Virus record (IMG/VR): IMGVR_UViG_3300020045_002218
Location: 1 to 64,000 of that record
Origin: a virus
Direction: 5' to 3' (one strand)
DNA length: 64,000 nt
In this document: positions 4,384 through 33,167 of the stretch, piece by piece
Numbering within the stretch: position 1 is the stretch's first letter
Layout of the letters: each line of letters begins with the position of its first letter
Made by a program: the position numbers and the translations under genes
Notes under the pieces: generated by a model
The model's input: the letters and a program-made list of their open reading frames with translations, nothing else
The model's database searches: none
What the model was told of the DNA's origin: nothing

Positions 4384-4387
4384 ATAA

Positions 4388-6892: not shown

Positions 6893-6906
6893 TTAAGGAA
6901 TTACTT

Positions 6907-8241
6907 ATGGCAGGTAAGAAACGCAAAATAACAAGAGAACCTTTTAGTTACCCAAGAGAATTAACCTCTCAATTAGATTCTTATGGAGGTACTTCAAGAC
7001 CTTTACAAGATTTAGCTCTTAAAGAAGAATTTGCAAAATTAAATAATACAAAATCTAGTATTCCTTATGAACAACCAATAGTTAGAAATACAGAAGACGT
7101 GTTAAAAAGTTTTACACCTAACGGTGCATCACCTACAACAAAAATTTCTGGAAGTTCTGTACCTTTAAGAAATACACCATCAATTAAATTATCTAATCCA
7201 GCACAACCAGCTTCTATTGCTACACCTGGTATGGTTGACATACAACCTACACAAGCTAAACCAAATATATTATCTAATATTGGTTCTAAGATTGTTAATG
7301 GTAAGCCTGGTGTATCAGAAGTTATAAGAGGTAAGTTACCTATTAATGCTATTAAAGGTGGAGCAATGTTAGCTCCTTCGTTTATAGCTTCATCAAATAT
7401 TTTAGGCAATAACAACACAGAATCTTTGATAAATGATTACACTAATAAGGAACAAAATAACTTTAAACAACCTATATTATCTGAGTTATCTCAAGGTATT
7501 CAAAATCCAAGTACATTACCAAAACACTTAGCTAATATAGCTTCAGATGGTATTGCTAGTGCTTGGAATAGTTCAGATTTTGGTAATACTAAATTAGGTT
7601 CTGCAATAGGTAATTTTGCTGGTGGATTAAGACAAACTGCAACTACTGTAAATGAATATCCTTACATGGCTAAAGCAAATCAAGCAATTCAACAAGGTAT
7701 TGCTGGAGGTATCGATTTAGCAGGATTTGGGTATAATGATTCAACACAACAAATAGGTAGTGTTATACCTACACAAATACCTACTTCAGCTACATCGCCT
7801 GTAAATCAAACATCTCCGTTTAAAAATACTGGATTGCCTAATGCAGAAATAAATTCTTTATTACAACAGAGACAACCTACACAAAATATGAGTTCTGTAG
7901 AACAACCTAAAACAAATGTCTTAGGTGAACCTATTCAGGCTACAGGTGTTGAAGGTGTGCAAGTACAGCAAGGTGCTAATGGTGTTCCTATGTATTCTAA
8001 AACAGGTACAGTACCTAACACATCGGGAATTAAGTATGATGATATGTCTCCTGGAAGAACAACCATTAATGGTAAAGTAGATAGAAATTCTGAATGGTTT
8101 AAAAGAAATGACGCTATAGCTCATCCATCAAGAATTACTGCTAATGTTGGAGGAATACAATACAATACAGGTAATCCAACAACATCTAATATTGATTTTA
8201 CACAAATGGAATCAAGACCTGAATTCTTAAGAAGGTACTAA
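6907..8241 (+). CDS. Putative internal virion/ejection protein
   Basis: Low-complexity Gly/Asn/Gln/Pro-rich, no Cys, upstream of vRNAP. Confidence 0.5.
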   Translation: MAGKKRKITREPFSYPRELTSQLDSYGGTSRPLQDLALKEEFAKLNNTKSSIPYEQPIVRNTEDVLKSFTPNGASPTTKISGSSVPLRNTPSIKLSNPAQPASIATPGMVDIQPTQAKPNILSNIGSKIVNGKPGVSEVIRGKLPINAIKGGAMLAPSFIASSNILGNNNTESLINDYTNKEQNNFKQPILSELSQGIQNPSTLPKHLANIASDGIASAWNSSDFGNTKLGSAIGNFAGGLRQTATTVNEYPYMAKANQAIQQGIAGGIDLAGFGYNDSTQQIGSVIPTQIPTSATSPVNQTSPFKNTGLPNAEINSLLQQRQPTQNMSSVEQPKTNVLGEPIQATGVEGVQVQQGANGVPMYSKTGTVPNTSGIKYDDMSPGRTTINGKVDRNSEWFKRNDAIAHPSRITANVGGIQYNTGNPTTSNIDFTQMESRPEFLRRY

Positions 8242-8242
8242 A

Positions 8243-9067
8243 ATGACACCACAACAATTTCAAGCAATGAATGAAGAAACTACTAGAAGAAATAATGCTC
8301 TAGTAAGGGAAGAACAAGATTCTATCTTTAATAGATGGAATACTCAACAACAAGCAATTACTCCTTTAGATGCTTGGGAACAAAGAAGAGCAGCAGAAAT
8401 AGAAGTACAAAAAGCTAATCCAATATTTCAAAAGGAGCAAGAGAAAAAAGACTTAATAGCTAATCTTCAAGGTGCAGGTAGGGCTATGCAAGATGCACAA
8501 TCCATCAGTGGATATACGCATAATGGTTTAGATGTTCATCAAGGTCAAGATGGTAAATACTATGCTCAAGATGCTCAAGGTAATGCTTATGAAGCTCCAC
8601 AAGATCAATTGAAACCAAAATATTCTATTGACAGAGGTCAAGCATTAATGAGTATGTTAAATGCAGGAAATACTCATGCTATTCCTGTGTTTGCTGCTAC
8701 TCAAGATAAAGAGTCTGGTAAATTAGGTTTTGCAGAACAACTTGCTTTAGCTCAAGTAAAAGGTAATAATCAACAGGATTTATGGGAAGCTAAACAACAA
8801 GCAAGAGAGAATGCTTCTGATGATAAAATGACAGGATATTCTAAAGCTAAAGATATTGTAGGTAATTTATCTCCTTGGTTTGGTGATAATGAATATGCGA
8901 CAAACGAAGCAACAAATATTGTAGGTCAAGCATTAGTTGATCCAAGATATAAAAAAGCAGATGTAATTAACGCAGCTAATAAAGCTAAAGCAGCATCAAG
9001 TCAATGGTATAAAGGAAAAACAGATTTTGATGCTCAAGAGTTTATTAGACAATTAACAGGTAACTAA
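8243..9067 (+). CDS. Putative internal virion/ejection protein
   Basis: Gln/Ala-rich, no Cys, directly upstream of vRNAP as N4 gp51/gp52. Confidence 0.5.
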   Translation: MTPQQFQAMNEETTRRNNALVREEQDSIFNRWNTQQQAITPLDAWEQRRAAEIEVQKANPIFQKEQEKKDLIANLQGAGRAMQDAQSISGYTHNGLDVHQGQDGKYYAQDAQGNAYEAPQDQLKPKYSIDRGQALMSMLNAGNTHAIPVFAATQDKESGKLGFAEQLALAQVKGNNQQDLWEAKQQARENASDDKMTGYSKAKDIVGNLSPWFGDNEYATNEATNIVGQALVDPRYKKADVINAANKAKAASSQWYKGKTDFDAQEFIRQLTGN

Positions 9068-9075: not shown

Positions 9076-12000
9076 ATGTCTACTACGTTTAATAATAATA
9101 CAACTTTCAATAACAATTCTTTTGAAGATACAGCTACACCTTTAATACAACAAAAGAAATTAAGTTTATTAGATAGTGTATTTAATAAAAGAAATGAACT
9201 TGGTTTCAGTTCAGCTAATTTAAAGGATAGAGAAGTACAAGCATTAGATGCTGATACAGTAAGAATCAATCCTAGTGTAGCTGATAAGGCTTATGATCCT
9301 TTTGTTAAACCAGTAGATGTAAGACTTAAAAGTAATAACTTTGGTGAATCATTTAATGCTTTTGAAACTTCACATGGTAATGAGAATGACCCTGAAGTAG
9401 CTGCTAGATTACAGAAGCAAAGAGATGTTATTGATAATGAGTGGACTCATGGATGGTTTAATCCCGCTACAAACCAAGATGTGTATGATAGAGGTGTTGC
9501 TGGTAAACAATTATTAGCAGATAAGCTTAAACAAGTTAATGAAGGTAAAACTGGATTAGACTTTGCTTTAGGTGAAAGAGATAAGTTTGGTAGACCATTA
9601 GGTGATATGAAATTATCTAATGAGAATACTTCTGTTATTGATTCTATGAATACTCCTGAAATTAACTCAGCATATAACACACCTTATAATTTTGCTAAAG
9701 TAAATCAAGATAATAATATTATAGATCATGCTAAAGATGCTTTAGCTAGTTTTGGTACTGGTGCTACTGTACTTGCAGGTCAAGGACTTGTTGGTATGGC
9801 TGATTTAGCTCAATACGGAGTTAAGAAAGGTTTAACAGCTTTAGCTGATAAAGGTTCTGATTATGATAGAGCTATTAATGAAGCTCCGTCAATAACAGAT
9901 CAGTTACAAGAAGTTGGGTATGACCCATTAAGAACTAAAACTACATTAGATGAAGTTTTACATTCAAAAGAATGGATTAAGAAAGAAGCAGAAATGCAGA
10001 ATGTTATTTCTAAATCTGATGGTGAATGGGATGCAGCTAAAAATACTTTTGAATTCTTAGTTAATAATCCAGCACATTTATTAACTAGTGCTGTATCAGA
10101 ATCTTTACCACTAATGCTTGGAGGTATGGGTGTTACTCAAGCAGTAAGTAAAAACTTAGCTAAAAAGACATTGGAAAATGCTTTAAGAAATACTTCAAAA
10201 GATAGCTTAAAAATACTTGGTGCTGGTGCAGTAACCGAAGGATTACAATCTGCTGGTGCAATAGCTGATACTGCTGATTTACATGGTAGAACACAAGACC
10301 AATATGCTCCTAATGCACTATTAGCTGGTTTAGGTACTGGTGTTATTAATATGGGTATGAATACTGCTTTAGGTGATATAGCTACAAATATTGCTACTAG
10401 AGGTGCAGTAGGTAAAACAGGTATAGTTAAATCAATTCTATCTGAAGGTGCAGAAGAAGCTCAACAAACAGCTTTAGAAACCATAAATACTAATATTGCT
10501 GAAGGTGAAAAAGACATCTTTAAAGGTATTGGTTCAGAAACTGTATTAGGTACTGCTGCTGGTATGGCAACTGGTGGAGGTATGGCAATTCCTCATAGTG
10601 CTATAAATGCTCTACAAGCTCGTAAAACACCTGAAGACACACAAACACTTACTGAAGATGTAAACACCTCTACAAACGAAGATTTGCACCCTTCTGTTGG
10701 AGTATTTACAGATAAAGTAAACCAAATAAAGAATGAAGTGGATCCTGTAGTAAAACAACAAACAGTAGAAGAATCAATTAATGAACTCCCTACTGATGCT
10801 TCTCTTAAGGATAGAAAAGAAGTACAAAACCAAGTTAATACTATGGTTAGTAGTATTGATGAAACTTCTTTATCATCTGAATTTAAAGCTAAACAAACAG
10901 AATTTAATACCCAAATACAGGCTGAAGATGAGTTACAAGCATTAGATGTATCTACCATTAAACCAGAAGAACAAGATAAAGCAATAGAGAATATTTCAGC
11001 TAAAGTAAATACTCTAGTATCTAAACCAGATAAAGCTACAGTAGATTCTCTTGTAAAGGTAAGTGATACCTTTGCTACTAAGTATCAAGATTCAGATACT
11101 ATTAATGATCCCTTGGTTCAAACTGTACTTAAACAAGAGACATCTAAAATGTCTCCTTCAGAGACTGCTACAGCTCAAAAAGAAGCTAAGGCAAAGGTTG
11201 ATGAGGGTAAACAAGTTACACCCTCTAAAATAGAAGATTTAGTACTTTCTAAACCTAATATAGATGAATACAAAGTTAAGGTTGAAACTATTACAGATGA
11301 CAATAGACAGGAAATTATAAACCAAGGTATTAAAAATTATTCTCATGATGGTACTTTACCTGAAAAGATTCAAATGGCTACTGCTATTGGTAAAGCTAGA
11401 GATGGTTATAATTCACCTGAACATGACGCAATCTACAGACAAGTTAATGCAGAGATAACATTACAACACTGGGCAAAACAAGCTGCCTTTAAAAGTATGA
11501 TTAGTGATCCAGCTAATACAATAGAAGATATTGAAGCTGATCTTGTTAGTAATTCTACAGATTCTACATCAACTAATACTGGTTCAATATTTAATGATAT
11601 TGGTAGAACTAAAGATAAAGATACATTAAATATTCTTAAAGATATTTCTATAGCTAAACAAAAAGAATATGCAGATAGTGATTCAGTTAATGATCCTTAT
11701 GTATTAGCTACTACTGGTATTGAAACTAAGAACTTAGAACCTAGAGCATCTGAAACATTCTCTGCTGTTATGAGAGGAGAATATAAAGGAGATCTTAATG
11801 AACCTTTACTTAGATTATCTGCTAACTTAACTAACCCAAAAGATAAAGATACTGCTATATCAGCATTAACAAAAACTATCTCTAAAGTATATTCAGATAA
11901 AGTAGATATTACTGACACTACTGAAAGAACAGTTAAACAAGCATTAAATACTATTAATGGTTTAGTTACTAATAAAGGTACTATTACTATTGAACCAAGT

Positions 12001-15000
12001 GATTCATTAGAAGAGATACATAGAAAGATATTACCTATATTTGGTTCAACAATGATTGAAGGTGATACAAGTAAGTTATCTCCAGAATTTGTTAAATCTA
12101 ATAATGAATTAGTTACTGCTTTAAAAGAGCATGAAACTAAATACTTAAAAGGTAAATCTACAGAAGAAGTAGCTAATGATAAATTGGTAGGTGGTGGTAA
12201 GTTACCTAGTTATAAAGATCATGTTGGTTTAATTCACTTAGCTTTAGCTAATAATGCTAGTAAAGAGTTCATTCAAGCCAAGGTAAATAAATTATCTAAA
12301 TGGGTATCTTATGATGCTAATAGGGCTAAGTTATTCACTAAACTATCTACGACTACTAATGAAGAAGAGAAAGCTAATTTAGTAGAACAGCTTAAAGGTA
12401 AAAATCCCTTTACAAGTAATGAAGGATTATCATTTACAACTGGTTCAGTAAAATTAGCTGAACAGTTAAATGATGAATCTAAAATAATGGTAGATGCTTT
12501 AACCAATATGCAGAATGAAGTTAATACTCATTTTGGTATTACAACACAAGTAACTCCTACACAATCAGGTAAAGGTTTAGTTAAAAAAGTTCCTGGTGTT
12601 ACTACTAAAGCACAACAAGTAAAAACTACAAGACTTAAAAATATTTCAAATCATGTAAATACTATATTAAAAGATACTGCTCTTACAGAAGAGTTTATGA
12701 AGTCTTTTATTGATACAGGTGAAATTAAGCTTAAAGAACTTAATGCTGATATTGCTGATTTTCAAAAACAACAAATAACTAATGAACCTGAGTTTGCTCC
12801 GTTTGATGATACTAATATTCCAGAAAATATAGATGATAATTTAGAGTCTACGGTAGATGTAGAATCCTCTACAAGCAATGAAACAACTAAACCTGAAGAA
12901 GTTATTACCTCAGAAGATAAAACTCCTGTAATCGAAGATTTGGAGGATTCTGATGAGTCTTTAGAAGATAAATTAAATCGTATATGGCAAGAAAGATATG
13001 ATGCAGAAATGCAACAACAAGAAGAATTCTTTCAACCTACAGCTAAGACAGAACATTACGTTGTAAACTCAGAATCCTTTCCTAGATATGATGATGAGAA
13101 CCTAGTTAAAATAAATACCTTGGTTCAAAATCTAGTTAAGTTCGATGACACGTTAGATATGCCTAAAGCTATTGAATACATTCAAAAAGCTTTAAAAGGT
13201 AAAACAGATAAGTTACCTAAAAATATTCAAGATAGGTTAAATAGACCTATGGTTCAAGAAAAGCTTAAAGAGATTAAACCATATAGTTTAATTTTAGAAG
13301 ATTCTACAAATAAAACTAAACATAAGTTTACTCAAAAGTTTCATTCTTTTAGGAATGTATTTATAAATGGGATACAACAATTTAAAGTTGTTGATGGCGA
13401 AAGGAAACCTATAAAGAAAGCAAACTTACCTATTCATAATATGATTCTTAGAATGTTTAAACCAGAATCGATAGAAAACAAATCTCTTTATAACAAGTAT
13501 CCTAATCTATTTAAAAATCTTTTTAATATTCCTGAATACTTTAGAGATGTTGTTAAAACTAAAGAAGGTGAAAGAGCATTTATACAACTAAGGAATGAAG
13601 AAGCTAGATTTCAAAAAGCATTTCAATATACATTCAAATTTGAAGTAAATGATAAAGTAGATCCTTTATATATGTTTACTAATGATAAGCATGAAGTAGA
13701 ACCAAATATTGTATCAGCTATATTTGTAGCTAGTATGGATTGGATGTTATCTAAAGGAAGAGATACATTATATAACTTTCCTAAAGATGCTAAAGCAATT
13801 GTAGGTATGAAAGAAGAAGATACACTTGAGCCTTTAATAGTAAATGAATTAGCAACTAAAGGTAGTGTAAGAACTGTTATTGCTAATGCTATAGGAAATA
13901 CAGCATTTGCTAATTTAAAATTTAAACCAAGTGATACATATTCAGAGGCTGAAATAGCTAAATTAAAATTAGCTTTAGGTTTACATGCTGTAAACACAAT
14001 GGTCAATTTAGGATATGTAGAAGTATCTGGAGCAATAGAAACAACTACATTTAATTCATTTAAGTTTAATAATTTACTTAATTGGAAATATGTTAATCCA
14101 AAATTACCTGCTGATACTCAGAAAGAGTCTGTTGTATTTATTCGTATTGCTAATGAAATGAAAGATGGTGTTCATGAAATTAGGGAGGATATTAAGAAGA
14201 AATTAGATACTATTAAAGCGGGTGTTAAAGAAGTAAATAAATTATTTGATATTGAATACTCAAAAGAATTACCTAGATTATTTGAACCAACTGAAGATGA
14301 TATTTATACTTATCTTGGGGGTAATAAAGAAACAGGTGAAAAACCTAGAGCATTACACTCAAACCAAGTAATTGCAAATAGAAGAGTTAAAAATCTTACT
14401 AAGTATATTCAGCAAGCACATACAATGAATATACCTGTTAATGCTTTAGCTGTAGCTTTAGGTAAAGATGCTATTAAAGATATTGTTATGGGTAAAGACT
14501 GGAAGTTACCTCAACAACAACATACAGCTAAATCTTTTGAAGGTAAATTACGTTCATTTGAAAATAATTACGAAGACTTTGAAACACTAAATAAACTTGG
14601 TTCAAGTGATCCAGAACACAGTATTTACCATTTATCTACTTACTGGAAACAAGGTAGAGTTGGAGGTTCATCAGTAGGACATCCACAAAACAATAAAGAA
14701 GTAAGAAATTTATCTGCACCTAAATCTCAAATAGTAAAGGTTAAAGCTAAAGATGATGTTCTTAGAGTTGAATTCAAATTAGCTGTATTAGAAGCATTTG
14801 GTAAAGCAGCTAAGTCATTTTTAAACATTCAAGAAATTGAAGAAGCATATATAGAATTAGAAACCAAGTATGCTGATGCTATACAAGCAATCAAAACTTG
14901 GGAAGAAACTAAAGAATTAGATAAACAAGTAATTATTGCTGCTGCTCAAGAAGGGGGAGAGAAAACGCATTCATTAGCAGGATTAATGGCATTAGCACAA

Positions 15001-18000
15001 TACTCACCAGATAAAGAGTTTACTTCGTATATTGGAAGAGAAGTCGATGGTATTACTAACGGAGTATTAATTGGTTTAGTTCTTCTTTCAGGTGTTAATA
15101 ATTTTGATGTTTATAAAGATGTGTTATCAGCAGCAGGATTATTTGAAGATCCTAACATGACTTATGCACAATGGGAAAGAGAAGTTAATGCAGAGGGAAT
15201 TACTAATTTAGATAACTATAAAAAAATTACGAGAACATTTTTTGATGAGTTAGAGAATATTTCTGAGAATGCTTTACACGATAGATTAGGCAGTAATTCT
15301 AAAGCTAAGTTTCAAGCTATTAAAGATTTAACTGGAGAATTAGTTACACAACCTTCTATAGATGAAATAGGTAATGAAGTTAAAAGTGTTATTACTAAAG
15401 CAGGAAGAAACTTCTCTAAACCATTATTATTACTTACTATGTTTGGTAAGTCTGCTACTAAACTAGCAAATTCTAAAGGTGATGATGTAGTAACAGCTTT
15501 TTATGAACAATTAGCTAAATTATATAATGAAGCTAAAGCTTCAGAAGAAAAGGTAGATAGGGAAGCTGTAAGAAGTTTAATTAATAAAATTGAAACTATC
15601 TTAGGTAAACCCCTTTTAGGTAATATTGTTGAAGATGGTAAACTTAAAAAAGTTAGTGAAAGTTCAAGAGAGAATGTATTAGTACCTCTTACTGCAAGCA
15701 ATATGCTTAATTTTAAGCTTACAAACCAAGATAATAAAACTATTGTAGAGACAGTAAGTAGATTATATAAACCTGAAATTACAGCAGCTATTGATGCTTT
15801 CTTTGGTGCTACTATTGCTAATAGAAAGATACTTAATGATGCTTATTATATTGTGGGTGAAGTATTTAAACTTGGTTTGAAAAAGGAATTAACAGCATTT
15901 TCAAAGAAGTATAAAAGAGAACCTTCAGAAGTAGAATTTGATAATATCTTAGAGAAGTTAAAAGCTATTCAACCTTTAGCTCCTACTTCAGATGCTACAG
16001 GACTAGAACATCATGTACAGTTATGGGATTCTTCTAAGAGTTCTATTCAAAGAGATAACTATGGTACTCAAGTAAATTTCAATCATCCTGAAGGAGTAAT
16101 GATTGATTATACGATTTTAGATAGAGAAGGTAACTTAGGTTACTATAACATAAAACTACCTAAATCAGCATCAGGACATGCTGTAGGATTAGTATTAGAT
16201 TCTCTTGGTGTAGGTGTAGCTATTATGCACATACATAACAAAGATTCAGAGGTAATAGTAGATACAATGTCCTCAGAGTTTACTGGTTTAGGTGTTCATG
16301 ATGCTTGGATATTTAATATAGCTCAAGCTGTATCTGGATCTGCTTTTATGAACCAATCTCTTAATAAGCATCTTAGAAATACTGACGTATTTAAAGGAGC
16401 AGTTGATTCAATAAACAGAGTAATGAAGTATCTTGAATCTAATGAAGATATTTTAGAAACAATAAATATTGAACTTGTTAATACAACAAATCCTGATAAG
16501 GGTATGTTTAAAATGCAAAGATTCTATGACTTAACAGATAAAGTATTTACTCCACAATTTGAAAATTTAGATCAATATGTAGAATATCTTAAGGCTGTAA
16601 GTGCTGAATTAAAAACTCAAAGAGATGAACAAATATTTAAGAATATTCCTCCAACAGGTGTTAAACAGTATGGTGGTACTGATGGAAGTCAAGATGTTAA
16701 AGATATTGCTGACTCAGAAGCTCAAATAGAAGCAAATAGAGCTGTTAGAGAAGCAGCTAAGGCTAAAGCAGCTAAAGAAATACAAGATGCTAAGGATGAA
16801 GCAGAGCGTAAAGCTAAGGAAGATGAAGAAGCATTTAACGATGAAACATCTAAAGTATTTATATACAAAGATGTTTCTATTGATACAGCATTTGCTTTAG
16901 GTAAAGAACAAAAAATAGTCTTACGAGAATTAATTGATTTTCTTAACTCAGATTTTATATCTAGTGATCCTAAAACCTTTATACATACTGTAAGTGGAGC
17001 AGCAGGAACAGGTAAAACAAGCATTATCGGGTATTTAGAACAATATATGCGTAAAGCTAATAAGTATGAACCCCCTTTCAAATATGCAGCTCCTACACAT
17101 GCAGCTACAGCACAATTAGCCGTTGCTATAGCTAATACTGGTGGTACAGAATATCCACTAACAGTTAAATCTAGTTGGTATTTAAACACTTCTGGAAAAA
17201 CTCCTGTATGGTTATTTACAAAGAAAATGGGAGATAATAATAGTGTGCTTGTTGTTGATGAATCGTCTATGGTTGAAAATGATGAAATAGATGGTTTAAT
17301 TAAAGCAATGCAAAAACCTATGCAAATGAATGTTAAGAAAGTCATTTTAATAGGTGATGAAAAACAACTTCCAGAAGTTAAAGAAAATTCAAGAGAGAAG
17401 CAAACTCAAGTATCTAAAGCTTTTAGAGAGTTTAATGTATCAAATTTAACTAAAGTATACAGACAAAAGGAAAATTTACTTTTATCTATTTTAGGTAAAA
17501 TGAGAGCTTCTGTAACAGATAATTTATATAAACCCAAACCAAATGCTTCTAAAGAAAATATAGAGTTTTTACCTATAAAAAGAGATTTCTTTATAGCATT
17601 TGTTGAAGCATATAAAAGAAATCCTACAGAGACTATAGCAGTAACATTTACAAATACTGGAGTAGCTCAGTTAAATAAATTTATTAGAAAAGAAACATTA
17701 AAAGATAAATCAGCTTTTACTCAAGAAGGTGAAACAGTTGTAGGATATGCAGGATACGGAAATAAAACAATTGAAGGACAGCATATCGCTAATTCATTAG
17801 CATATAAACTTGATAGTATTAAACATATTTCTGGAATACAGGGCGTAGTCTTGGATGCTACATCACCTAAATTAAATAAAATAAATGAATCAGAAATGTC
17901 TGTAGATGCTGATGCTTCAGCAATTTACTTACAACTATCCGATACAGATTCTCTTAATATCGAGGGGGAAAATAAAAATTATGTTGCTAATAATACATAC

Positions 18001-21000
18001 ATAAGCGATATTTTTAAAAAAATATATGATTTAAGTGATTCTTTTTATAAAACGCCGTATACAAGTAGTGGATTTACGCAGTATAAAAATTCTTTAAAAA
18101 AATTAACACAAGTTTTAGCAGGCATAGCTTTAGGGGATGATTATATTTATAACCCTAAAACAGAAAGAATGGAATTACTCAAGAATAATTCTGTAGTTGC
18201 TTCACCTAGAGTAAAAAAAGATATTACTTTTCCTAAAGGTATTGATTACGGATATGCAGTAACTATTCATAAATCCCAAGGAATAACAATGGAAAATGTA
18301 TTCTTTGATGCTTCATTTTTAGGTGATAAAGACGTAGCTATTATGAATAAAGATAGGCAAGTAACAACACTTAAACAAAGCCTTGCTTATGTAGCTATGA
18401 GTAGAGCATCTAAAAAATTAACTGTGTTTGCTGGTGAAACTCCTTTTACAGAGTATGTTGAAGGTACTTCCAAACAAGAAACTAAAACTAAACCAAGTGA
18501 AACCAATAAAGAAGAAGTACCTCATTTAGTCATTACTCCAATACAAGCAGTAGATAATAAAGCTACCATTAAAGGTAAATTAGCTAATAAGTTTATTGGA
18601 TTTGCTGAAGGTATTAATAATAGTTCAACAGGAGAGTATGCTAAACAAGCTGGAGATAAAGCTAATACAGGTGTATATACTTCTGATGATATTATCTTTG
18701 TTTCTGTTCCTGGTAAACGAGGTAATGCTGAAGTAAGGAAAGCACAACAAACCAAGACTATTAAAGAAGCTATTAAAGCATTAGAAGCAGGAGCTACACT
18801 ACTTACTGACAACGAAAAGTATGTTACATCAAGTGAATATAATGAAGGTGAGTTACGCCTTAGAAATAACTTATTACATAAAGGATATAAGTATTCTGAG
18901 ATAACTTCTGAAGGTCAAGTAATTGGTAAATGGAATAAAGAAGAAGTAAAACCTACAGCAACTCAAACCAATGAAAATAATAAACTTCTTGGTTCAACAC
19001 CTAATGCTAAAGATTTACTTACAGAAAAAGCAGACTTAATTAAAGATGTTACTGCTGAGAATATAGTATCTGAGTTTGATGCTATGCCTAAAGGTGAAGA
19101 TGAAACACATAATACATTCTTAAGAAACTTTGTATCTCAAGTAATAGCTCCAGTAGTAGAACAAACTGAATTACTTTTGTTTAGTAAAGCTACATATAAC
19201 TATGGACAGTATTCTGCTGAGTTAAAGAAAGTAGCTATTAACTTAGGTCAAGCAATGTCTAAGGATTTAGATAAGTTTCAGATGTCTGCACAAGAAGTAT
19301 TTGCTCATGAATTTGTGCATGTAGTTCAATGGGCTGCTTATGGACTATATGATAACAAGCATATTAGAAATATAGTTGATACACTGTTCTATAAACTAGA
19401 GCATGAATTTAATAAATACAAAGCAAGACATCCAGAAGATAAATCTTTAGACAAGTGGGATGGTTATGTATTTAATAATAAAGACTTTATTGATGTAACT
19501 GTTCATAATACAACTACTGGTAAACCAATGGTTGTTAAATATAATAGAGGTATTCAAGAATTCTTAGCATTTGGTTCAACTAATAAAGAATTTAGAGAAT
19601 TACTTACAAAGCTTAAACCAAGACAATTAAAAGTAACTGAGGTAAGTGCATCTACAGTAAGTGATGAAATAAGAGAAGCTACTTGGATTGAAGTAATATC
19701 TAATGTTCTTAAGAAAGTATTAGATTCATTTATTAGATTAGCTAAAGGTAAAAATTCTTTAGATCCATTAATTATTTTTGATAAGAATGTAAGATTTATT
19801 TTAGCTGCTAATGGTAAAACAGGTTACTTAAATACGACAGTTCCTATAGTAGATAGAGGAGATACTTTTATATCTGAAAAAGCTAAGGATGTAGGGTTAG
19901 GTGTACTTAAGTTTGTAGCTAAAGGTAGAGGATCTAAAATTCAGATTATTGATTCACTTGGTAAGTATGCTGATACTCTTCCATCTATTGGAGGATTTGA
20001 AACCAATAAAGTAATAAGAGAAACTCTTAAACTCATTAAACATGAACCAACTAGAAATATGTTATTGGATACTGTTAATGACATTAAAGGAACTACGGAA
20101 GCTAATAAACCTTTAGAGAATGCAATTCTTAATCAAGGTACTATTGAAGGTGAACGTAATACAGCTACAGCTAAAGATGTACAAGAGTATCAAAAGAAAG
20201 TAGGTGTACTTAGTGATTTACAAGATACAGCATTTAAAAATGTTGTATTGTCAGGTGAATTATTCTCTGTAAGAGATAACTATCCAACTAATTTTATTAA
20301 GTTATTAGAGGATAAATCTGAATTAAACCTAGAGATTAAGACTTTAGAATCACAAATACCTAAGTTAGTTAGTGATACTAACAATCTAGCTAGTATGATG
20401 GTGTTAGGTAAATATACAGAAACTGGTTTGGGTAAACATAATGCTGCTTTAGTAGCTAAACAAGGAAGGAATATTCCTCAAGATAAGTATCAAAAAGAAT
20501 TAGATTTAGTGACTAAATTAAGTAGATTGTATGCTATTGGTTTACAAGATGTGAACCAAGTAAATGAAGTAGTTAAGTTACTTAAAGATAAACCACAAGC
20601 AATGAATGAAGTAATGAATGTACATAGAGAGAATGTAAGAAAAGCTCATGAAGAAGGACATGCTCTTACTATTCATGATGGTGAGATACCTACATCATAT
20701 AACCCATTTAGGTCTATTCATTTAGGTACTAAAGAAGATGAGAAATTCTTAGTAGAGAATTGGGGAGCAACTATTATTGGTAACTTAGAAAGAGATCCTA
20801 ATGATTCTTTAACTACTCCAGGTGTGTTGTATTTAATTACTGAAAAGACTCAACAGGATTATGATTCTAAAGCTATGGCTTTTGTAAGTAGAAACTCAGA
20901 ATCAAGTAACTTTCATTCTGGTTTTGTTATGACAGATAGGTTTAAAGCAGCAGAGAATAGAGAGAAAGCTAAACTAAAGGATGCTGGTATTAAATCAACT

Positions 21001-22485
21001 AACAACATCAAACAAAAGAATAACTCTAATGTTTCAAGGGTAGCTATATTTAATCAACAAGGTAAAGTTATTAGATATGAATATGTCTTGGATAAAGCTA
21101 CTAAGGACAAGTATCTTAAACCAACGGTTAATGCTTTCAAAGATTTAGCTACTCAGAAGAATGCTATAACTTATACAAATGAAGCTATTAAACTTAATAA
21201 ACAGTTGGTAGATAAGTTATATAACTACTGGAAAGGGTTAGGTCATAAAACAAGACACGATATGCTTTGGGTTGGTTCAGAAGGTAAATACAAAGACTTA
21301 TGGAATATGATTCCTACTGAAACTAAAGCTTATTTTGAAACTAAATTTGGTACTGCAAAGGGCTTTTATATGGCAGAAGAGGAATTAAGAACTGTGTTTG
21401 GTTATAGAAAACAAACTATAACTAATTGGATTCAACCTGTATTAGAGGATGATTTGAAAAGACATATTGGTAATCACATTTACTATATGGTTAAGAGATT
21501 AGGATTTAACCTAGCTACTATTACAGCAATGGAATCTATGTGGATTGAAGGTATCTCTTTTGCTAAAGATACTATTGTAGTGAAGAGTGGTGTTGTATCA
21601 GCAGCTAATGAGTCAAGTAACTTTATGACTGCTAAATTAGAAGGTATGCCTATACCATTCTATTATGAAAACAAGATTAGAGCTATGAAAGCAGAACAAC
21701 AATTTAGAAGAGATTCTGATGCTTTATTATCACATTTAAGTAATGCTTATGGTAATCCAGAATATATAACTGAAGCTATTGATTATGAGATGAATAAGCT
21801 TAAATCAGCTATATCTAATAACCCAATGGCATTCTTACATGATGAAGGGTTAGCTTCTACTATAGCAGAAGAGAATGCTCACAAAGATAAACATGAAACC
21901 AAGCTATATTCTAAGACTGAAAGAGCTAGAAACTTATTTGATAAATTACCTAAAGTAGTTAAGGATACGCTTAAAGTAGCAACAATATCAGAAGGTACTA
22001 AGATATATACCTTAATGAATGAGATAGCTCAAATGGGAGATATTACATCAAGGTTTGCTCTTATTGCTTGGGAAGCAGAGAAAGCTAAACGTAGTGGTAC
22101 TAAATTTGATTATGAATCAGCTATAGATAAAGCTAAATTCTTATTTATTCAATATCATTCAGTTACTAATGATAAAGTTCAATGGGGAAATGATATTGGT
22201 TTAATTATGTTTAGTAAATTTGGTACTAAAGCTATAGGTGTATTAGCTCACATGTTTGGTAATCATGCAGGTAGGTTATTAGCATTAGGAATACTTGAAG
22301 ATGTATTAAGTGCTTCTGATTGGATATGGAATACAAGTCTTAATAAATTTGCTATACCTACTTCATCTTTATATGCAGCAATTGATGCTAGTCCAATAGC
22401 AAATGCTTTAATTACTCCTCCAGCATATATGCCTAAAGAGTTATTTTCTAAGCTAGGTATCTTACCTGTAGTATCTGGATTATAG
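9076..22485 (+). CDS. Virion-encapsidated RNA polymerase (N4 gp50-like) with SNase-like, SF1B helicase and zincin domains
   Basis: 4469 aa, no Cys seen; motif A REVDGITNG (~15046), motif B RNFSKPLLLLTMFG (15406-15447), motif C GVHDAW (~16300); helicase motifs 16996-18420; AHEFVH at ~19303. Confidence 0.95.
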   Translation: MSTTFNNNTTFNNNSFEDTATPLIQQKKLSLLDSVFNKRNELGFSSANLKDREVQALDADTVRINPSVADKAYDPFVKPVDVRLKSNNFGESFNAFETSHGNENDPEVAARLQKQRDVIDNEWTHGWFNPATNQDVYDRGVAGKQLLADKLKQVNEGKTGLDFALGERDKFGRPLGDMKLSNENTSVIDSMNTPEINSAYNTPYNFAKVNQDNNIIDHAKDALASFGTGATVLAGQGLVGMADLAQYGVKKGLTALADKGSDYDRAINEAPSITDQLQEVGYDPLRTKTTLDEVLHSKEWIKKEAEMQNVISKSDGEWDAAKNTFEFLVNNPAHLLTSAVSESLPLMLGGMGVTQAVSKNLAKKTLENALRNTSKDSLKILGAGAVTEGLQSAGAIADTADLHGRTQDQYAPNALLAGLGTGVINMGMNTALGDIATNIATRGAVGKTGIVKSILSEGAEEAQQTALETINTNIAEGEKDIFKGIGSETVLGTAAGMATGGGMAIPHSAINALQARKTPEDTQTLTEDVNTSTNEDLHPSVGVFTDKVNQIKNEVDPVVKQQTVEESINELPTDASLKDRKEVQNQVNTMVSSIDETSLSSEFKAKQTEFNTQIQAEDELQALDVSTIKPEEQDKAIENISAKVNTLVSKPDKATVDSLVKVSDTFATKYQDSDTINDPLVQTVLKQETSKMSPSETATAQKEAKAKVDEGKQVTPSKIEDLVLSKPNIDEYKVKVETITDDNRQEIINQGIKNYSHDGTLPEKIQMATAIGKARDGYNSPEHDAIYRQVNAEITLQHWAKQAAFKSMISDPANTIEDIEADLVSNSTDSTSTNTGSIFNDIGRTKDKDTLNILKDISIAKQKEYADSDSVNDPYVLATTGIETKNLEPRASETFSAVMRGEYKGDLNEPLLRLSANLTNPKDKDTAISALTKTISKVYSDKVDITDTTERTVKQALNTINGLVTNKGTITIEPSDSLEEIHRKILPIFGSTMIEGDTSKLSPEFVKSNNELVTALKEHETKYLKGKSTEEVANDKLVGGGKLPSYKDHVGLIHLALANNASKEFIQAKVNKLSKWVSYDANRAKLFTKLSTTTNEEEKANLVEQLKGKNPFTSNEGLSFTTGSVKLAEQLNDESKIMVDALTNMQNEVNTHFGITTQVTPTQSGKGLVKKVPGVTTKAQQVKTTRLKNISNHVNTILKDTALTEEFMKSFIDTGEIKLKELNADIADFQKQQITNEPEFAPFDDTNIPENIDDNLESTVDVESSTSNETTKPEEVITSEDKTPVIEDLEDSDESLEDKLNRIWQERYDAEMQQQEEFFQPTAKTEHYVVNSESFPRYDDENLVKINTLVQNLVKFDDTLDMPKAIEYIQKALKGKTDKLPKNIQDRLNRPMVQEKLKEIKPYSLILEDSTNKTKHKFTQKFHSFRNVFINGIQQFKVVDGERKPIKKANLPIHNMILRMFKPESIENKSLYNKYPNLFKNLFNIPEYFRDVVKTKEGERAFIQLRNEEARFQKAFQYTFKFEVNDKVDPLYMFTNDKHEVEPNIVSAIFVASMDWMLSKGRDTLYNFPKDAKAIVGMKEEDTLEPLIVNELATKGSVRTVIANAIGNTAFANLKFKPSDTYSEAEIAKLKLALGLHAVNTMVNLGYVEVSGAIETTTFNSFKFNNLLNWKYVNPKLPADTQKESVVFIRIANEMKDGVHEIREDIKKKLDTIKAGVKEVNKLFDIEYSKELPRLFEPTEDDIYTYLGGNKETGEKPRALHSNQVIANRRVKNLTKYIQQAHTMNIPVNALAVALGKDAIKDIVMGKDWKLPQQQHTAKSFEGKLRSFENNYEDFETLNKLGSSDPEHSIYHLSTYWKQGRVGGSSVGHPQNNKEVRNLSAPKSQIVKVKAKDDVLRVEFKLAVLEAFGKAAKSFLNIQEIEEAYIELETKYADAIQAIKTWEETKELDKQVIIAAAQEGGEKTHSLAGLMALAQYSPDKEFTSYIGREVDGITNGVLIGLVLLSGVNNFDVYKDVLSAAGLFEDPNMTYAQWEREVNAEGITNLDNYKKITRTFFDELENISENALHDRLGSNSKAKFQAIKDLTGELVTQPSIDEIGNEVKSVITKAGRNFSKPLLLLTMFGKSATKLANSKGDDVVTAFYEQLAKLYNEAKASEEKVDREAVRSLINKIETILGKPLLGNIVEDGKLKKVSESSRENVLVPLTASNMLNFKLTNQDNKTIVETVSRLYKPEITAAIDAFFGATIANRKILNDAYYIVGEVFKLGLKKELTAFSKKYKREPSEVEFDNILEKLKAIQPLAPTSDATGLEHHVQLWDSSKSSIQRDNYGTQVNFNHPEGVMIDYTILDREGNLGYYNIKLPKSASGHAVGLVLDSLGVGVAIMHIHNKDSEVIVDTMSSEFTGLGVHDAWIFNIAQAVSGSAFMNQSLNKHLRNTDVFKGAVDSINRVMKYLESNEDILETINIELVNTTNPDKGMFKMQRFYDLTDKVFTPQFENLDQYVEYLKAVSAELKTQRDEQIFKNIPPTGVKQYGGTDGSQDVKDIADSEAQIEANRAVREAAKAKAAKEIQDAKDEAERKAKEDEEAFNDETSKVFIYKDVSIDTAFALGKEQKIVLRELIDFLNSDFISSDPKTFIHTVSGAAGTGKTSIIGYLEQYMRKANKYEPPFKYAAPTHAATAQLAVAIANTGGTEYPLTVKSSWYLNTSGKTPVWLFTKKMGDNNSVLVVDESSMVENDEIDGLIKAMQKPMQMNVKKVILIGDEKQLPEVKENSREKQTQVSKAFREFNVSNLTKVYRQKENLLLSILGKMRASVTDNLYKPKPNASKENIEFLPIKRDFFIAFVEAYKRNPTETIAVTFTNTGVAQLNKFIRKETLKDKSAFTQEGETVVGYAGYGNKTIEGQHIANSLAYKLDSIKHISGIQGVVLDATSPKLNKINESEMSVDADASAIYLQLSDTDSLNIEGENKNYVANNTYISDIFKKIYDLSDSFYKTPYTSSGFTQYKNSLKKLTQVLAGIALGDDYIYNPKTERMELLKNNSVVASPRVKKDITFPKGIDYGYAVTIHKSQGITMENVFFDASFLGDKDVAIMNKDRQVTTLKQSLAYVAMSRASKKLTVFAGETPFTEYVEGTSKQETKTKPSETNKEEVPHLVITPIQAVDNKATIKGKLANKFIGFAEGINNSSTGEYAKQAGDKANTGVYTSDDIIFVSVPGKRGNAEVRKAQQTKTIKEAIKALEAGATLLTDNEKYVTSSEYNEGELRLRNNLLHKGYKYSEITSEGQVIGKWNKEEVKPTATQTNENNKLLGSTPNAKDLLTEKADLIKDVTAENIVSEFDAMPKGEDETHNTFLRNFVSQVIAPVVEQTELLLFSKATYNYGQYSAELKKVAINLGQAMSKDLDKFQMSAQEVFAHEFVHVVQWAAYGLYDNKHIRNIVDTLFYKLEHEFNKYKARHPEDKSLDKWDGYVFNNKDFIDVTVHNTTTGKPMVVKYNRGIQEFLAFGSTNKEFRELLTKLKPRQLKVTEVSASTVSDEIREATWIEVISNVLKKVLDSFIRLAKGKNSLDPLIIFDKNVRFILAANGKTGYLNTTVPIVDRGDTFISEKAKDVGLGVLKFVAKGRGSKIQIIDSLGKYADTLPSIGGFETNKVIRETLKLIKHEPTRNMLLDTVNDIKGTTEANKPLENAILNQGTIEGERNTATAKDVQEYQKKVGVLSDLQDTAFKNVVLSGELFSVRDNYPTNFIKLLEDKSELNLEIKTLESQIPKLVSDTNNLASMMVLGKYTETGLGKHNAALVAKQGRNIPQDKYQKELDLVTKLSRLYAIGLQDVNQVNEVVKLLKDKPQAMNEVMNVHRENVRKAHEEGHALTIHDGEIPTSYNPFRSIHLGTKEDEKFLVENWGATIIGNLERDPNDSLTTPGVLYLITEKTQQDYDSKAMAFVSRNSESSNFHSGFVMTDRFKAAENREKAKLKDAGIKSTNNIKQKNNSNVSRVAIFNQQGKVIRYEYVLDKATKDKYLKPTVNAFKDLATQKNAITYTNEAIKLNKQLVDKLYNYWKGLGHKTRHDMLWVGSEGKYKDLWNMIPTETKAYFETKFGTAKGFYMAEEELRTVFGYRKQTITNWIQPVLEDDLKRHIGNHIYYMVKRLGFNLATITAMESMWIEGISFAKDTIVVKSGVVSAANESSNFMTAKLEGMPIPFYYENKIRAMKAEQQFRRDSDALLSHLSNAYGNPEYITEAIDYEMNKLKSAISNNPMAFLHDEGLASTIAEENAHKDKHETKLYSKTERARNLFDKLPKVVKDTLKVATISEGTKIYTLMNEIAQMGDITSRFALIAWEAEKAKRSGTKFDYESAIDKAKFLFIQYHSVTNDKVQWGNDIGLIMFSKFGTKAIGVLAHMFGNHAGRLLALGILEDVLSASDWIWNTSLNKFAIPTSSLYAAIDASPIANALITPPAYMPKELFSKLGILPVVSGL

Positions 22486-33131: not shown

Positions 33132-33167
33132 TGTGGGTAAAAGTGGCAGAATGCCACATTTAAAATA

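What the first reader, a model, noticed from the sequence alone, without database searches (positions are those of the whole stretch)
16890..18430. Complete SF1B (Dda/RecD-like) helicase embedded in the virion RNA polymerase
Seen: about 200 aa after RNAP motif C, a ~510-aa block has the SF1B motifs in order (GAAGTGKT, APTHAA, VVDESSM, LIGDEKQLP, LTKVYRQ, TFTN, YAVTIHKSQG, LAYVAMSRA), in frame and flanked by charged linkers. Known: N4 vRNAP (~3500 aa) has no helicase; it needs single-stranded hairpin promoters, host gyrase and host SSB. Inference: this phage may inject a transcription-unwinding machine that opens its own templates, aids genome entry or starts replication. This is the best candidate for an undescribed system here.
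Basis: partly seen in the sequence, partly recalled or inferred. Interest (0 to 1): 0.88.

Follow-up and report, generated by a model that had tools for sequence, protein, structure and literature searches.

The report
Helicase cassette inside N4-like virion polymerase
An uncultured N4-like phage has an intact DNA helicase inserted in the flexible hinge of the giant RNA polymerase it injects with its DNA; the helicase belongs to a clade otherwise found in the unrelated giant polymerases of crAss-like phages, which may explain how such polymerases get the single-stranded template they need.

Summary
ORF 9076-22485 (+) encodes one 4469-aa protein. All SF1B motifs lie at residues 2641-3111. The helicase model is confident (pLDDT 92) and best matches T4 Dda.

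The host protein is a divergent N4-like virion RNA polymerase (vRNAP). The helicase is part of a 758-aa cassette: a charged linker, the helicase and a small alpha/beta domain. The cassette sits where N4 gp50 has a 23-residue disordered linker between the polymerase and the C-terminal domain.

Sister phages with 88-93% identical C-terminal domains lack the helicase. At the same slot they carry a DprA-like module, another module or nothing. One diverged fragment (P0002) has the same fusion.

The helicase groups with helicases embedded in crAss-like two-barrel virion polymerases, not with the stand-alone N4-type helicase. That crAss-type fusion is already in RefSeq (cr118_1 gp14), and this scan noted it before on other DNA. 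I found no N4-like version elsewhere.

The whole chain, helicase included, has no cysteine, as in N4 gp50.

The most likely function, which is inferred, is an injected 5'-3' motor that opens or keeps single-stranded the early template. I class it as a new variant of a known kind. No read-level check was possible.

The parts
9076..22485 (+). Whole vRNAP gene: 4469 aa, no cysteine, last gene of the late (+) operon and convergent with the replication module
   Evidence: ORF list and translation. phrog_2206 'virion RNA polymerase' E 2.7e-207. tblastn to annotated Schitoviridae vRNAPs at 20-26% identity. Cysteine count 0.
9076..11775 (+). N-terminal domain (aa 1-900), the counterpart of the membrane-associated NTD of N4 gp50
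   Evidence: 36-40% identical to the N-termini of P0152-P0154. Domain scheme of N4 gp50 from PMC13434306. Boundaries are approximate.
11776..16701 (+). T7-like single-subunit RNAP core (aa ~901-2542). Motif A is EVDGITNG (Asp1991, nt 15046-15063). Motif B is R..K..LTMFG (nt 15406-15447, Phe in place of N4 Tyr1675). Candidate motif C is GVHDAW (nt 16291-16308).
   Evidence: BLASTP to N4 gp50 aa 1350-1699, E 1e-14, aligns motifs A and B. The same motifs are kept in P0152-P0155. Motif C was assigned by pattern only and was not aligned by BLAST.
16702..16842 (+). Charged Glu/Lys/Ala-rich linker (aa 2543-2589); left edge of the inserted cassette
   Evidence: Homology to sister vRNAPs ends after the conserved ...GGVKQYGG (aa ~2528-2541). 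Composition.
16843..18450 (+). SF1B (Dda-type) helicase domain, aa 2590-3125, with all motifs intact. The Walker A lysine is K2647.
   Evidence: All-library phmmer gave 102 cluster representatives at E<1e-30. AlphaFold2 pLDDT 92, pTM 0.91. Foldseek top matches are DSH9 8jx6 (E 4e-23) and T4 Dda 3upu (E 4e-21), then RecD, RecD2 and Pif1. It is the only SF1B helicase in the window.
18493..18975 (+). Small alpha/beta domain of unknown family (aa 3140-3300, folded core ~3159-3290) plus a linker; right part of the cassette
   Evidence: Homologues occur inside crAss-type giants (P0007 E 1e-48; also P0021, P0106, P0027, P0042) and in the slot of P0152 (E 4e-6). AlphaFold2 pLDDT 84, core above 90. No clear PDB match: Foldseek E >= 6e-3, VIA-align Z <= 5.5. 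No Pfam or Atlas hit.
18976..22482 (+). C-terminal domain (aa 3301-4469) with the zincin-type HEFVH at aa 3411 (nt 19306-19320). Nucleotide similarity to sister phages resumes sharply at nt 18989.
   Evidence: 92-93% aa identity to P0152 and P0154, 59% to P0153, 88% to G001. 91% nt identity from 18989 (G002) or 19056 (G001). Weak BLASTP to N4 gp50 aa 2701-3441 (E 1.5e-7), and N4 has HELVH at 2228. The N4 C1 subdomain carries the HExxH (PMC13434306). MPTase reading from PMC5512222.

Best explanation
SHOWN. The gene encodes a genuine N4-like virion RNA polymerase with an N-terminal domain, a T7-like RNAP core and a C-terminal domain carrying HExxH. A 758-aa cassette sits in the flexible hinge between the polymerase and the C-terminal domain. 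The cassette is a charged linker, an intact Dda-type SF1B helicase and a small alpha/beta domain. The hinge is a variable cargo slot. In sister phages it is empty or holds a DprA-like module or another module. The helicase and the other slot modules belong to a set otherwise found in the C-terminal parts of crAss-like two-barrel virion RNAP giants. The modules were therefore probably exchanged horizontally between two unrelated kinds of injected polymerase. The chain, helicase included, has no cysteine, as in N4 gp50. INFERRED. The helicase is packaged and injected as one more bead on the vRNAP chain. Once refolded in the cytoplasm it uses ATP to move 5'-3' on single-stranded DNA, which is the direction of the polymerase along the non-template strand. 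In this way it opens or keeps open the early promoter and transcription region, and possibly strips the transcript. It would thus supply the single-stranded template that N4 obtains from host gyrase and SSB.
For: Architecture. Insert boundaries: P0153 joins the RNAP directly to the CTD (P0001 aa 2536 aligns with 2454, and 3287 with 2470), and the conserved edges are GGVKQYGG and GSTPNAKDLLTEKAD. Nucleotide similarity to the syntenic sister genomes G001 and G002 stops at 15890 and resumes at 18989 at 91%. The slot corresponds to the disordered 23-aa RNAP-CTD linker of N4 gp50, described as 'beads on a string' (PMC13434306). Alternative cargo: DprA-like phrog_768 in G002/P0154 (E 2.7e-10) and in G001 (E 1.8e-10). 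The same module lies just upstream of the helicase in 20 or more crAss-type giants or fragments. Origin: 56 of the 70 giant hits carry the crAss RNAP block, which matches annotated crAssphage RNAP catalytic subunits. In the tree, P0001+P0002 (support 100) nest in an 86-row clade dominated by those giants, while the stand-alone N4-type helicase RPP1 gp53 falls in the other clade. A real, conserved fusion: P0002 comes from another dataset and is colinear across both junctions in one HSP, with 35% identity overall, 46% in the helicase, and all motifs kept. Adaptation to the injected life style: 0 Cys in 4469 aa; 46 of 54 helicase domains inside crAss giants are Cys-free, against 4 Cys in RPP1 gp53 and 0.3-2.6% Cys in the window's other large ORFs (0.8-2.6% in its replication and transcription enzymes). 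Function: both vRNAP types transcribe single-stranded or denatured DNA but not native duplex DNA in vitro (phi14:2 gp66, bioRxiv 10.1101/2020.03.07.982082; N4, PMC4496689). N4 needs gyrase for hairpin extrusion and SSB for template recycling. One alternative slot module (DprA-like) also belongs to a family annotated for single-stranded DNA. The 5'-3' polarity of SF1B helicases (Dda, RecD2) is established knowledge.
Against: There is no biochemical, proteomic or transcript evidence. The cassette is dispensable in this lineage: P0153 has an empty slot, and G001 and G002 have no SF1B helicase. It therefore cannot be a core requirement of the polymerase. Rapid cargo turnover beside a 91%-identical CTD resembles the arms-race behaviour of polyvalent-protein effectors (PMC5512222). 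Whether the helicase stays attached or is cut off by the HExxH domain is unknown. An SF1B helicase needs a 5' single-stranded entry site, and none has been identified. I did not identify N4-type hairpin promoters in the early region. The tree is FastTree, midpoint-rooted, with many weak inner branches, so the direction of transfer is not proven. Reads could not be checked.
Confidence: 0.5

Rival explanations
1. The helicase is an independent injected effector. It would be one of several interchangeable cargo domains of a polyvalent protein, released by the HExxH peptidase. It would act on host or defence targets, for example by clearing DNA-bound host proteins, countering restriction or R-loop-based immunity, or protecting the incoming DNA end. 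It would have no mechanical link to transcription.
For: N4-like vRNAPs are classed as polyvalent proteins with an MPTase and variable extra domains (ART, lysozyme, PBECR1) (PMC5512222). The slot changes cargo between phages whose flanking CTD is 88-93% identical. The cassette is flanked by long charged or low-complexity linkers that could be cleavage sites.
Against: The same helicase clade is found again and again joined to RNA polymerases of two unrelated folds, both dependent on single-stranded DNA. One alternative module (DprA-like) belongs to a family annotated for single-stranded DNA rather than being a typical toxin or modifier. Peptidase activity of the N4 HExxH domain has not been shown in the papers read.
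Confidence: 0.25
2. It is the phage's replication or recombination helicase moved into the vRNAP gene. It would stand in for the N4 gp37-type helicase and act at the start of DNA replication or in recombination-dependent replication.
For: N4 (gp37) and Roseovarius phage RPP1 (gp53) have a stand-alone SF1B helicase just upstream of the DNA polymerase. This window has none at that place or anywhere else. RPP1 gp53's only match in the window is the embedded helicase (27% identity, E 1e-14).
Against: The 97-100% complete sister genomes G001 and G002 have no SF1B helicase over the Pfam cut-off, while the positive controls matched. The lineage therefore replicates without one. The tree puts the embedded helicase with the crAss-giant clade, not with gp53. 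The gene is late and lies in the structural operon. The Cys-free composition fits a packaged protein. The window omits several kb of the genome, so a stand-alone copy there is not strictly excluded.
Confidence: 0.1
3. It is a genome-entry motor. Anchored to the membrane through the vRNAP N-terminal domain, the helicase/translocase would help pull the DNA into the cell.
For: In N4, genome entry beyond the first ~500 bp depends on vRNAP, and vRNAP is membrane-associated (PMC4496689, PMC13434306). Whether transcription is part of the ejection motor is listed as an open question in PMC13434306.
Against: SF1B enzymes move on single-stranded DNA, not duplex DNA, according to established knowledge of Dda and RecD2. 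Sister phages manage without it. This reading overlaps with the best explanation and is hard to separate from it by sequence.
Confidence: 0.08
4. It is an artefact or a dead domain: a chimeric assembly joining a helicase gene to a vRNAP gene, or an inactive relic kept as a spacer.
For: The exact protein is not in the 15-billion-protein collection. No reads could be laid on the junctions.
Against: The frame is continuous over 13.4 kb. GC3 is uniform at 0.12-0.16 across all segments. The cassette has no cysteine, like the rest of the chain. P0002 is independent and colinear across both junctions. All catalytic motifs are intact and conserved at 46% identity. The model is confident. There are no promoter or terminator signals above chance at the junctions.
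Confidence: 0.03

Closest known systems
Escherichia phage N4 gp50 virion RNA polymerase (Schitoviridae; 3500 aa; PMC13434306, PMC4496689)
   Same: Both have the same three-part plan (NTD, T7-like RNAP, CTD with HExxH) and the same genomic place at the end of the late operon, next to the gp42-45-like exonuclease, primase and Sak4-like genes. RNAP motifs A and B align. Both have no cysteine. Both phages encode the two RNAPII subunits.
   Different: Identity is only ~24% over the alignable RNAP core. A 758-aa helicase cassette replaces the 23-residue RNAP-CTD linker. Motif B has Phe where N4 has Tyr. The phage has no gp37-type stand-alone helicase.
crAss-like giant virion RNAP-helicase proteins, e.g. 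cr118_1 gp14 (Suoliviridae, 4946 aa, annotated 'exonuclease V') and more than 50 metagenomic cluster representatives
   Same: The helicase is from the same clade, at 33-46% identity to the first hundred or so hits (E below 1e-30) and mostly 35-42% to the crAss-type giants. Both are joined to a packaged RNAP that needs single-stranded DNA. Both share accessory modules (the DprA-like module and the small alpha/beta domain). Both are nearly free of cysteine.
   Different: The polymerase there is a two-barrel DFDxD enzyme unrelated in fold to the T7-like N4 core. The helicase there is usually at the extreme C-terminus, whereas here it is internal, between the RNAP and a 1170-aa CTD.
T4 Dda and deep-sea helicase DSH9 (SF1B; PDB 3upu, 8jx6)
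   Same: They share the fold (Foldseek E 4e-21 to 4e-23, TM up to 0.69 on the target) and all SF1B motifs.
   Different: Identity is 17-20%. The domain here is about 90 aa longer, with added elements between motifs IV and V. Dda and DSH9 are free-standing proteins, whereas this one is a domain of an injected 4469-aa chain.
Polyvalent proteins of phages and conjugative elements (Iyer, Burroughs, Anand, de Souza, Aravind 2017; PMC5512222)
   Same: It is a giant multidomain protein delivered with the DNA. It carries a zincin-like HExxH domain and a variable set of extra domains. N4-like vRNAPs are named as members.
   Different: The extra domains listed for N4-like RNAPs in that paper are ART, lysozyme and PBECR1. 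The helicases listed for polyvalent proteins are SNF2-type SF2 helicases and plasmid UvrD-like SF1 helicases. A Dda-type SF1B helicase or a DprA-like module in an N4-like vRNAP is not mentioned in the passages found.
Stand-alone replication-module helicase of Schitoviridae (N4 gp37; Roseovarius phage RPP1 gp53)
   Same: It is an SF1B helicase and shows weak similarity (27% over ~220 aa, E 1e-14).
   Different: It belongs to a different clade and a different locus (replication module against late operon). It contains cysteine (4 in 424 aa) and is not fused.

Membership tests
SF1B (Dda/RecD/Pif1-type) helicases | Ordered motifs I (Walker A), Ia, II (DExx), III (GDxxQ), IV, V and VI | tested here: met
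   GAAGTGKT, APTHAA, VVDESSM, LIGDEKQLP, LTKVYRQ, HKSQG and VAMSRA are all present, in order. They are conserved in the family alignments. AAA_30 matches at E 3.6e-19; UvrD_C_2 at E 2e-5 (24.8 bits, below its 27.4-bit cut-off).
SF1B (Dda/RecD/Pif1-type) helicases | Two RecA-like domains with 1B and 2B accessory domains, as in Dda or RecD2 | tested here: met
   AlphaFold2 pLDDT 92. The Foldseek top matches are Dda-type, then RecD, RecD2 and Pif1, all at probability 1.00.
SF1B (Dda/RecD/Pif1-type) helicases | ssDNA-dependent ATPase with 5'-3' translocation and unwinding | not testable with these tools
   This needs the purified domain and polarity substrates.
N4-like virion RNA polymerase (Schitoviridae gp50 family) | Homology to the gp50 RNAP core, with catalytic motif A Asp and motif B Arg/Lys | tested here: met
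   phrog_2206 E 2.7e-207. BLASTP to N4 gp50 E 1e-14 aligns EVDGITNG with EADGVTNG and R..K. Motif C was assigned by pattern only. The motif B Tyr is Phe here.
N4-like virion RNA polymerase (Schitoviridae gp50 family) | Tripartite NTD-RNAP-CTD chain with HExxH in the first CTD subdomain | tested here: met
   HEFVH at aa 3411 against HELVH at aa 2228 in N4. The CTD aligns to N4 aa 2701-3441.
N4-like virion RNA polymerase (Schitoviridae gp50 family) | N4-like genome context: RNAPII subunits, gp42-44-like replication genes, vRNAP at the end of the late operon | tested here: met
   compared with the N4 gene map.
N4-like virion RNA polymerase (Schitoviridae gp50 family) | Packaged in the capsid and injected; transcribes early genes from hairpin promoters | not testable with these tools
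   There is only the indirect cysteine-free signature. No hairpin promoter was identified.
Polyvalent proteins (PMC5512222) | Large multidomain protein of a phage with a zincin-like MPTase domain and variable effector domains | tested here: met
   The HExxH motif and weak SprT/eCIS-core-type matches in relatives. Variable slot content among sister phages.
Polyvalent proteins (PMC5512222) | Processing into separate units by its own peptidase after delivery | not testable with these tools
   This needs virion and infected-cell proteomics.
crAss-like two-barrel virion RNAP (phi14:2 gp66 type) | DFDxD two-barrel catalytic block | tested here: not met
   A profile of the block from 12 giants hits 59 of the helicase-bearing proteins but not P0001 or P0002. 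P0001 is therefore not a member; only its helicase and accessory domain are shared.
Schitoviridae replication helicase (N4 gp37 / RPP1 gp53) | Stand-alone gene upstream of the DNA polymerase that groups with gp37/gp53 | tested here: not met
   There is no such gene in the window. The embedded helicase falls in a different, strongly separated clade.

The most novel reading that the evidence does not exclude
There may be a small, horizontally exchanged 'template-access toolkit': an SF1B helicase, a DprA-like single-strand binder and an unnamed alpha/beta domain. Two unrelated kinds of injected phage RNA polymerase, N4-like (T7 fold) and crAss-like (two-barrel), would plug this toolkit into flexible hinges of their giant chains. 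This would make early transcription of the incoming duplex genome independent of host gyrase and SSB.
Probability: 0.3. Interest if true: 0.8.

Novelty: new variant of a known kind. Interest (0 to 1): 0.62.

Why it matters
N4 and crAss-like virion polymerases share an unsolved problem. In vitro both transcribe only single-stranded or denatured DNA, yet they must start on a freshly injected duplex genome. N4 solves this with host gyrase and SSB. For crAss-like phages the answer is unknown.

The same helicase clade, and the same accessory modules, are joined to both polymerase types. This gives a concrete, testable candidate for a phage-borne solution.

This phage and its sisters also form a natural experiment. 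Their C-terminal domains are 88-93% identical, and the slot holds a helicase, a DprA-like module or nothing. The cassette also shows that the RNAP-CTD hinge of the N4-type enzyme tolerates a 760-residue insertion, and that a two-lobed helicase can apparently be threaded through the tail with the rest of the chain. If the function is instead anti-defence, it adds a new cargo type to polyvalent proteins.

Tried and rejected
The chimera question rests on indirect evidence.
- Megablast of 7 kb against 50,697 phage records gave no match.
- tblastn of the helicase against the same records gave only four weak hits, none inside a vRNAP. Its sensitivity was low, because most N4-type gp37 helicases were also missed.
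- A single-sequence scan of IMG/VR found no close relative of the helicase.
- phmmer of P0001 or of its RNAP core against PDB sequences gave nothing. The link to N4 rests on the PHROG profile and on direct BLASTP to gp50.
- A whole-length profile of five vRNAPs gave no domain line against N4 gp50.
- The small alpha/beta domain gave no Pfam hit, no usable Atlas hit, only weak Rossmann-like Foldseek rows and VIA-align Z <= 5.5. It remains unnamed.
- A P-loop or PNK-like kinase in the slots of P0152 and P0154 was looked for by Walker A pattern and not found.
- Separate expression of the helicase from an internal promoter: consensus sites were below the shuffled expectation (12 found against 20 expected).
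- The search for N4-type hairpin promoters gave a repeated 25-nt motif and three GC-rich GAA-loop hairpins, but no convincing promoter family.
- No tRNA genes were found to hint at the host.
- The survey with N4 gp50 listed only its 120 nearest relatives, so it says little about distant Schitoviridae.

Full report
**1. The observation**

The window holds one uninterrupted ORF, 9076-22485 on the + strand, encoding 4469 aa. They run from GAAGTGKT at residue 2641 (nt 16996) to LAYVAMSRA at residue 3103 (nt 18382-18408).

- Pfam AAA_30 matches residues 2636-2806 at E 3.6e-19. UvrD_C_2 matches 3058-3117 at 24.8 bits, below its 27.4-bit cut-off.
- PHROGs gives 'Dda-like helicase' for 2538-3119 (E 3e-50) and 'virion RNA polymerase' (phrog_2206, E 2.7e-207) for the polymerase part.
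- An AlphaFold2 model of residues 2590-3125, built on 48 aligned relatives, has mean pLDDT 92 and pTM 0.91.
- Its best Foldseek matches in the PDB are the Dda-type helicases DSH9 (8jx6, E 4e-23) and T4 Dda (3upu, E 4e-21), followed by RecD, RecD2 and Pif1.

**2. The host protein and the phage**

The neighbours are those of an N4-like phage:

- both subunits of an N4-type RNAPII (50184-51107 and 48412-49419, - strand);
- DNA polymerase A in two pieces;
- exonuclease, primase and an AAA_24 (Sak4-like) protein, in the N4 order gp39-gp44 (compare);
- ribonucleotide reductase and terminase.

The polymerase core matches annotated Schitoviridae vRNAPs at only 20-26% identity, so the phage is distant from cultured ones. 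Direct BLASTP to N4 gp50 (E 1e-14) aligns motif A (EVDGITNG against EADGVTNG, the catalytic Asp) and motif B (R..K). The C-terminal domain aligns weakly to N4 residues 2701-3441, and both proteins carry one zincin-type HExxH ahead of it. N4 gp50 itself matches only the four N4-RNAP Pfam families and no helicase. None of its 120 nearest relatives matches the helicase profile.

**3. The helicase is part of an insert in a variable hinge**

The nearest vRNAPs found are P0152 (3780 aa), P0153 (3642 aa) and P0154 (4267 aa), all from ~72-78 kb contigs.

- They are 44% identical to this protein in the RNAP core.
- P0152 and P0154 are 92-93% identical over the last ~1170 residues; P0153 is 59% identical there.
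- None of the three has the helicase.

P0153 passes from the conserved ...GGVKQYGG directly to the conserved ...STPNAKDLLTEKAD. In the window protein these two edges are about 760 residues apart.

Two near-complete IMG/VR genomes, G001 (74.3 kb) and G002 (72.0 kb, which holds P0154), are syntenic with the window at 65-91% nucleotide identity. Their similarity stops at window nt 15890 and resumes sharply at 18989 at 91%.

The insert therefore spans about residues 2543-3300. It has three parts:

- a Glu/Lys/Ala-rich linker (32% acidic residues);
- the helicase;
- a ~130-residue alpha/beta domain that folds confidently (core pLDDT above 90) but has no clear match in Pfam, the Atlas or the PDB.

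In N4 gp50 the corresponding place is a 23-residue disordered linker (2102-2123) between the RNAP and the CTD. That protein is described as 'beads on a string' (PMC13434306).

The slot carries other cargo in the sisters:

- G002/P0154 and G001 carry a DprA-like module (phrog_768, E 2.7e-10 and 1.8e-10).
- P0152 carries a homologue of the small alpha/beta domain plus an unknown part.
- P0153 carries nothing.

**4. Where the helicase comes from**

A search of 1.84 billion cluster representatives gave 102 hits below E 1e-30, at 33-46% identity. Most lie inside proteins of 2000-6300 aa, usually near the C-terminus. Only one hit, P0002, shares the N4-type polymerase and C-terminal domain. P0002 is a 2229-aa fragment from an 8.2-kb JGI contig. 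It is colinear with the window protein across both junctions in a single alignment.

Twelve of the giants share an invariant G-DFDxDK block. The block of one IMG/VR example (L003, a 5243-aa ORF) matches annotated RNAP catalytic subunits of crAssphage, crAss001 and Cellulophaga phages. A profile of that block hits 56 of the 70 helicase-bearing hits of 2000 aa or more, but not P0001 or P0002. The RefSeq crAss-like phage cr118_1 encodes such a protein. Its gp14 is 4946 aa, is annotated 'exonuclease V', and has the RNAP block at 2777-3406 and the helicase at 4427-4921.

In a FastTree tree of 129 helicase domains, P0001 and P0002 pair with support 100. They nest in an 86-row clade dominated by the crAss-type giants. 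The stand-alone N4-type helicase of Roseovarius phage RPP1 falls in the other main clade. The DprA-like slot module of P0154 is also found in 20 or more crAss-type giants or their fragments, typically just upstream of their helicase. The small alpha/beta domain occurs in several of them as well.

The most economical reading is that modules moved between the giant polymerases of crAss-like and N4-like phages. The direction of transfer is not proven, because the tree is unrooted in effect and many inner branches are weak.

**5. Signs that the fusion is real and adapted**

- The frame is open over 13.4 kb.
- GC3 is 0.12-0.16 in every segment.
- Promoter-like and terminator-like sites inside the region do not exceed the shuffled expectation.
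- P0002 shows that the same join has been kept at 35% overall identity and 46% helicase identity, with all motifs intact.
- The whole 4469-aa chain has no cysteine. The same holds for N4 gp50 (3500 aa), P0002, P0152-P0155 and the G001 vRNAP, and for 115 of 120 close N4 relatives.
- The window's other large ORFs have 0.3-2.6% cysteine, apart from one ORF with none. Its replication and transcription enzymes have 0.8-2.6%.
- Helicase domains inside crAss-type giants are cysteine-free in 46 of 54 cases, while RPP1 gp53 has four cysteines.

I read the cysteine pattern as the signature of proteins that are packaged and threaded through the tail. This is an inference; the paper read on N4 does not mention cysteine. 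Reads could not be examined.

**6. What it probably does**

Both kinds of virion polymerase are inactive on native duplex DNA and active on single-stranded or denatured DNA in vitro (phi14:2 gp66: bioRxiv 10.1101/2020.03.07.982082; N4: PMC4496689 and PMC13434306). N4 relies on host gyrase to extrude its hairpin promoters. It relies on host SSB to stabilise the template hairpin and displace the transcript. The authors of the 2026 N4 structure speculate that the CTD might bind or unwind DNA.

An SF1B helicase moves 5'-3' on single-stranded DNA (established for Dda and RecD2). On the non-template strand this is the same direction as the polymerase. The recurrent joining of this one helicase clade to two unrelated single-strand-dependent polymerases points to one model: an injected ATP-driven helper that opens or holds open the early template. 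A DprA-like module in the same slot of sister phages points the same way. I give this model about 0.5.

**7. Rival readings**

- **Independent effector (0.25).** The fast cargo turnover beside a nearly identical CTD also fits an independent polyvalent-protein effector, as described in PMC5512222.
- **Relocated replication helicase (0.1).** This is suggested by the absence of any other SF1B helicase in the window. It is weakened because G001 and G002 have none at all, while the positive controls matched.
- **DNA-entry motor (0.08).** This overlaps with the best model and cannot be separated from it by sequence.
- **Artefact or dead domain (0.03).** This is unlikely, given the points in section 5.

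**8. Novelty**

- The polyvalent-protein paper lists ART, lysozyme and PBECR1 as extra domains of N4-like RNAPs. It lists SNF2-type and plasmid UvrD-like helicases elsewhere, but no Dda-type helicase in a vRNAP.
- The N4 structure paper does not mention a helicase.
- Full-text searches found no paper on a vRNAP-helicase fusion in either phage group.
- The crAss-type fusion is in public reference genomes. Earlier follow-ups of this scan described it on other DNA, and I re-checked it on cr118_1.
- The scan holds no look-alike of this helicase sequence.
- First-reader notes on the same record describe another vRNAP, beyond this window, with a kinase-like domain after the polymerase core. I could not check this, but it fits a variable slot.

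I class the finding as a new variant of a known kind. It is a rare N4-type counterpart (two examples found) of a design known only from unstudied crAss-like records. It adds the observation that the two polymerase types share a pool of modules.

Noticed in passing
window 9076-22485 (whole vRNAP); also N4 gp50 in L095:14524-25026: There is no cysteine in 4469 residues. N4 gp50 (3500 aa), P0002, P0152-P0155 and the G001 vRNAP also have none, as do 115 of 120 close N4 relatives. The phage's replication and transcription enzymes have 0.8-2.6% Cys.
   Followed up: partly
window 15406-15447: vRNAP motif B reads R-NFS-K-PLLLLTM-F-G. It has Phe where N4 gp50 has Tyr1675, the position equivalent to T7 RNAP Y639, which from my own knowledge sets rNTP/dNTP discrimination. 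P0152-P0155 keep the same Phe, so it is a lineage trait.
   Followed up: partly
window 11776-16701 against 18976-22482, compared with G001 (L091-L094) and G002 (L087-L090): The gene is strongly mosaic. The C-terminal domain is 88-93% identical to sister phages, while the RNAP core is only 25-44% identical and the tail and structural genes at 1-9000 are barely alignable.
   Followed up: partly
window 33857-38007 (-): DNA polymerase A is encoded as two ORFs (36412-38007 and 33857-34975), with about 1.4 kb of small ORFs between them.
   Followed up: no
window 48412-51107 (-): An HNH endonuclease ORF (49425-50087, phrog_953 E 4e-85) lies between the two N4-type RNAPII subunit genes.
   Followed up: no
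window 52267-54958: A 25-nt motif (CTACTACATAAAATGCTTTTAAAAT and variants) recurs four times at about 1-kb spacing in the presumed early region. It may be a promoter or another punctuation signal.
   Followed up: no
window 33143-33157, 47856-47870, 56291-56315: Three GC-rich perfect hairpins with a GAA loop stand out in a 30% GC genome. At least two lie between ORFs, and one has an 11-bp stem in the region between the divergent operons. They are candidate vRNAP promoter or terminator hairpins.
   Followed up: no
G001 and G002 whole records; window 38000-43900: This phage lineage has no stand-alone SF1B helicase at the place where N4 (gp37) and RPP1 (gp53) have one. Genes of unknown function (phrog_1735, phrog_26613/VWA-like, phrog_7247) lie there instead.
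   Followed up: partly
alignment A1 (crAss-type giants P0004-P0034), last residues: The crAss-type RNAP-helicase giants are almost cysteine-free, yet they keep an invariant cysteine two to three residues from the C-terminus (C4842 of P0006).
   Followed up: no
L091:3-2702 (-) joined with the end of L094: The G001 contig is circularly permuted inside its vRNAP gene. Joining the contig ends gives one open 4560-aa frame with an ~890-aa slot that holds a DprA-like module plus unidentified sequence.
   Followed up: partly
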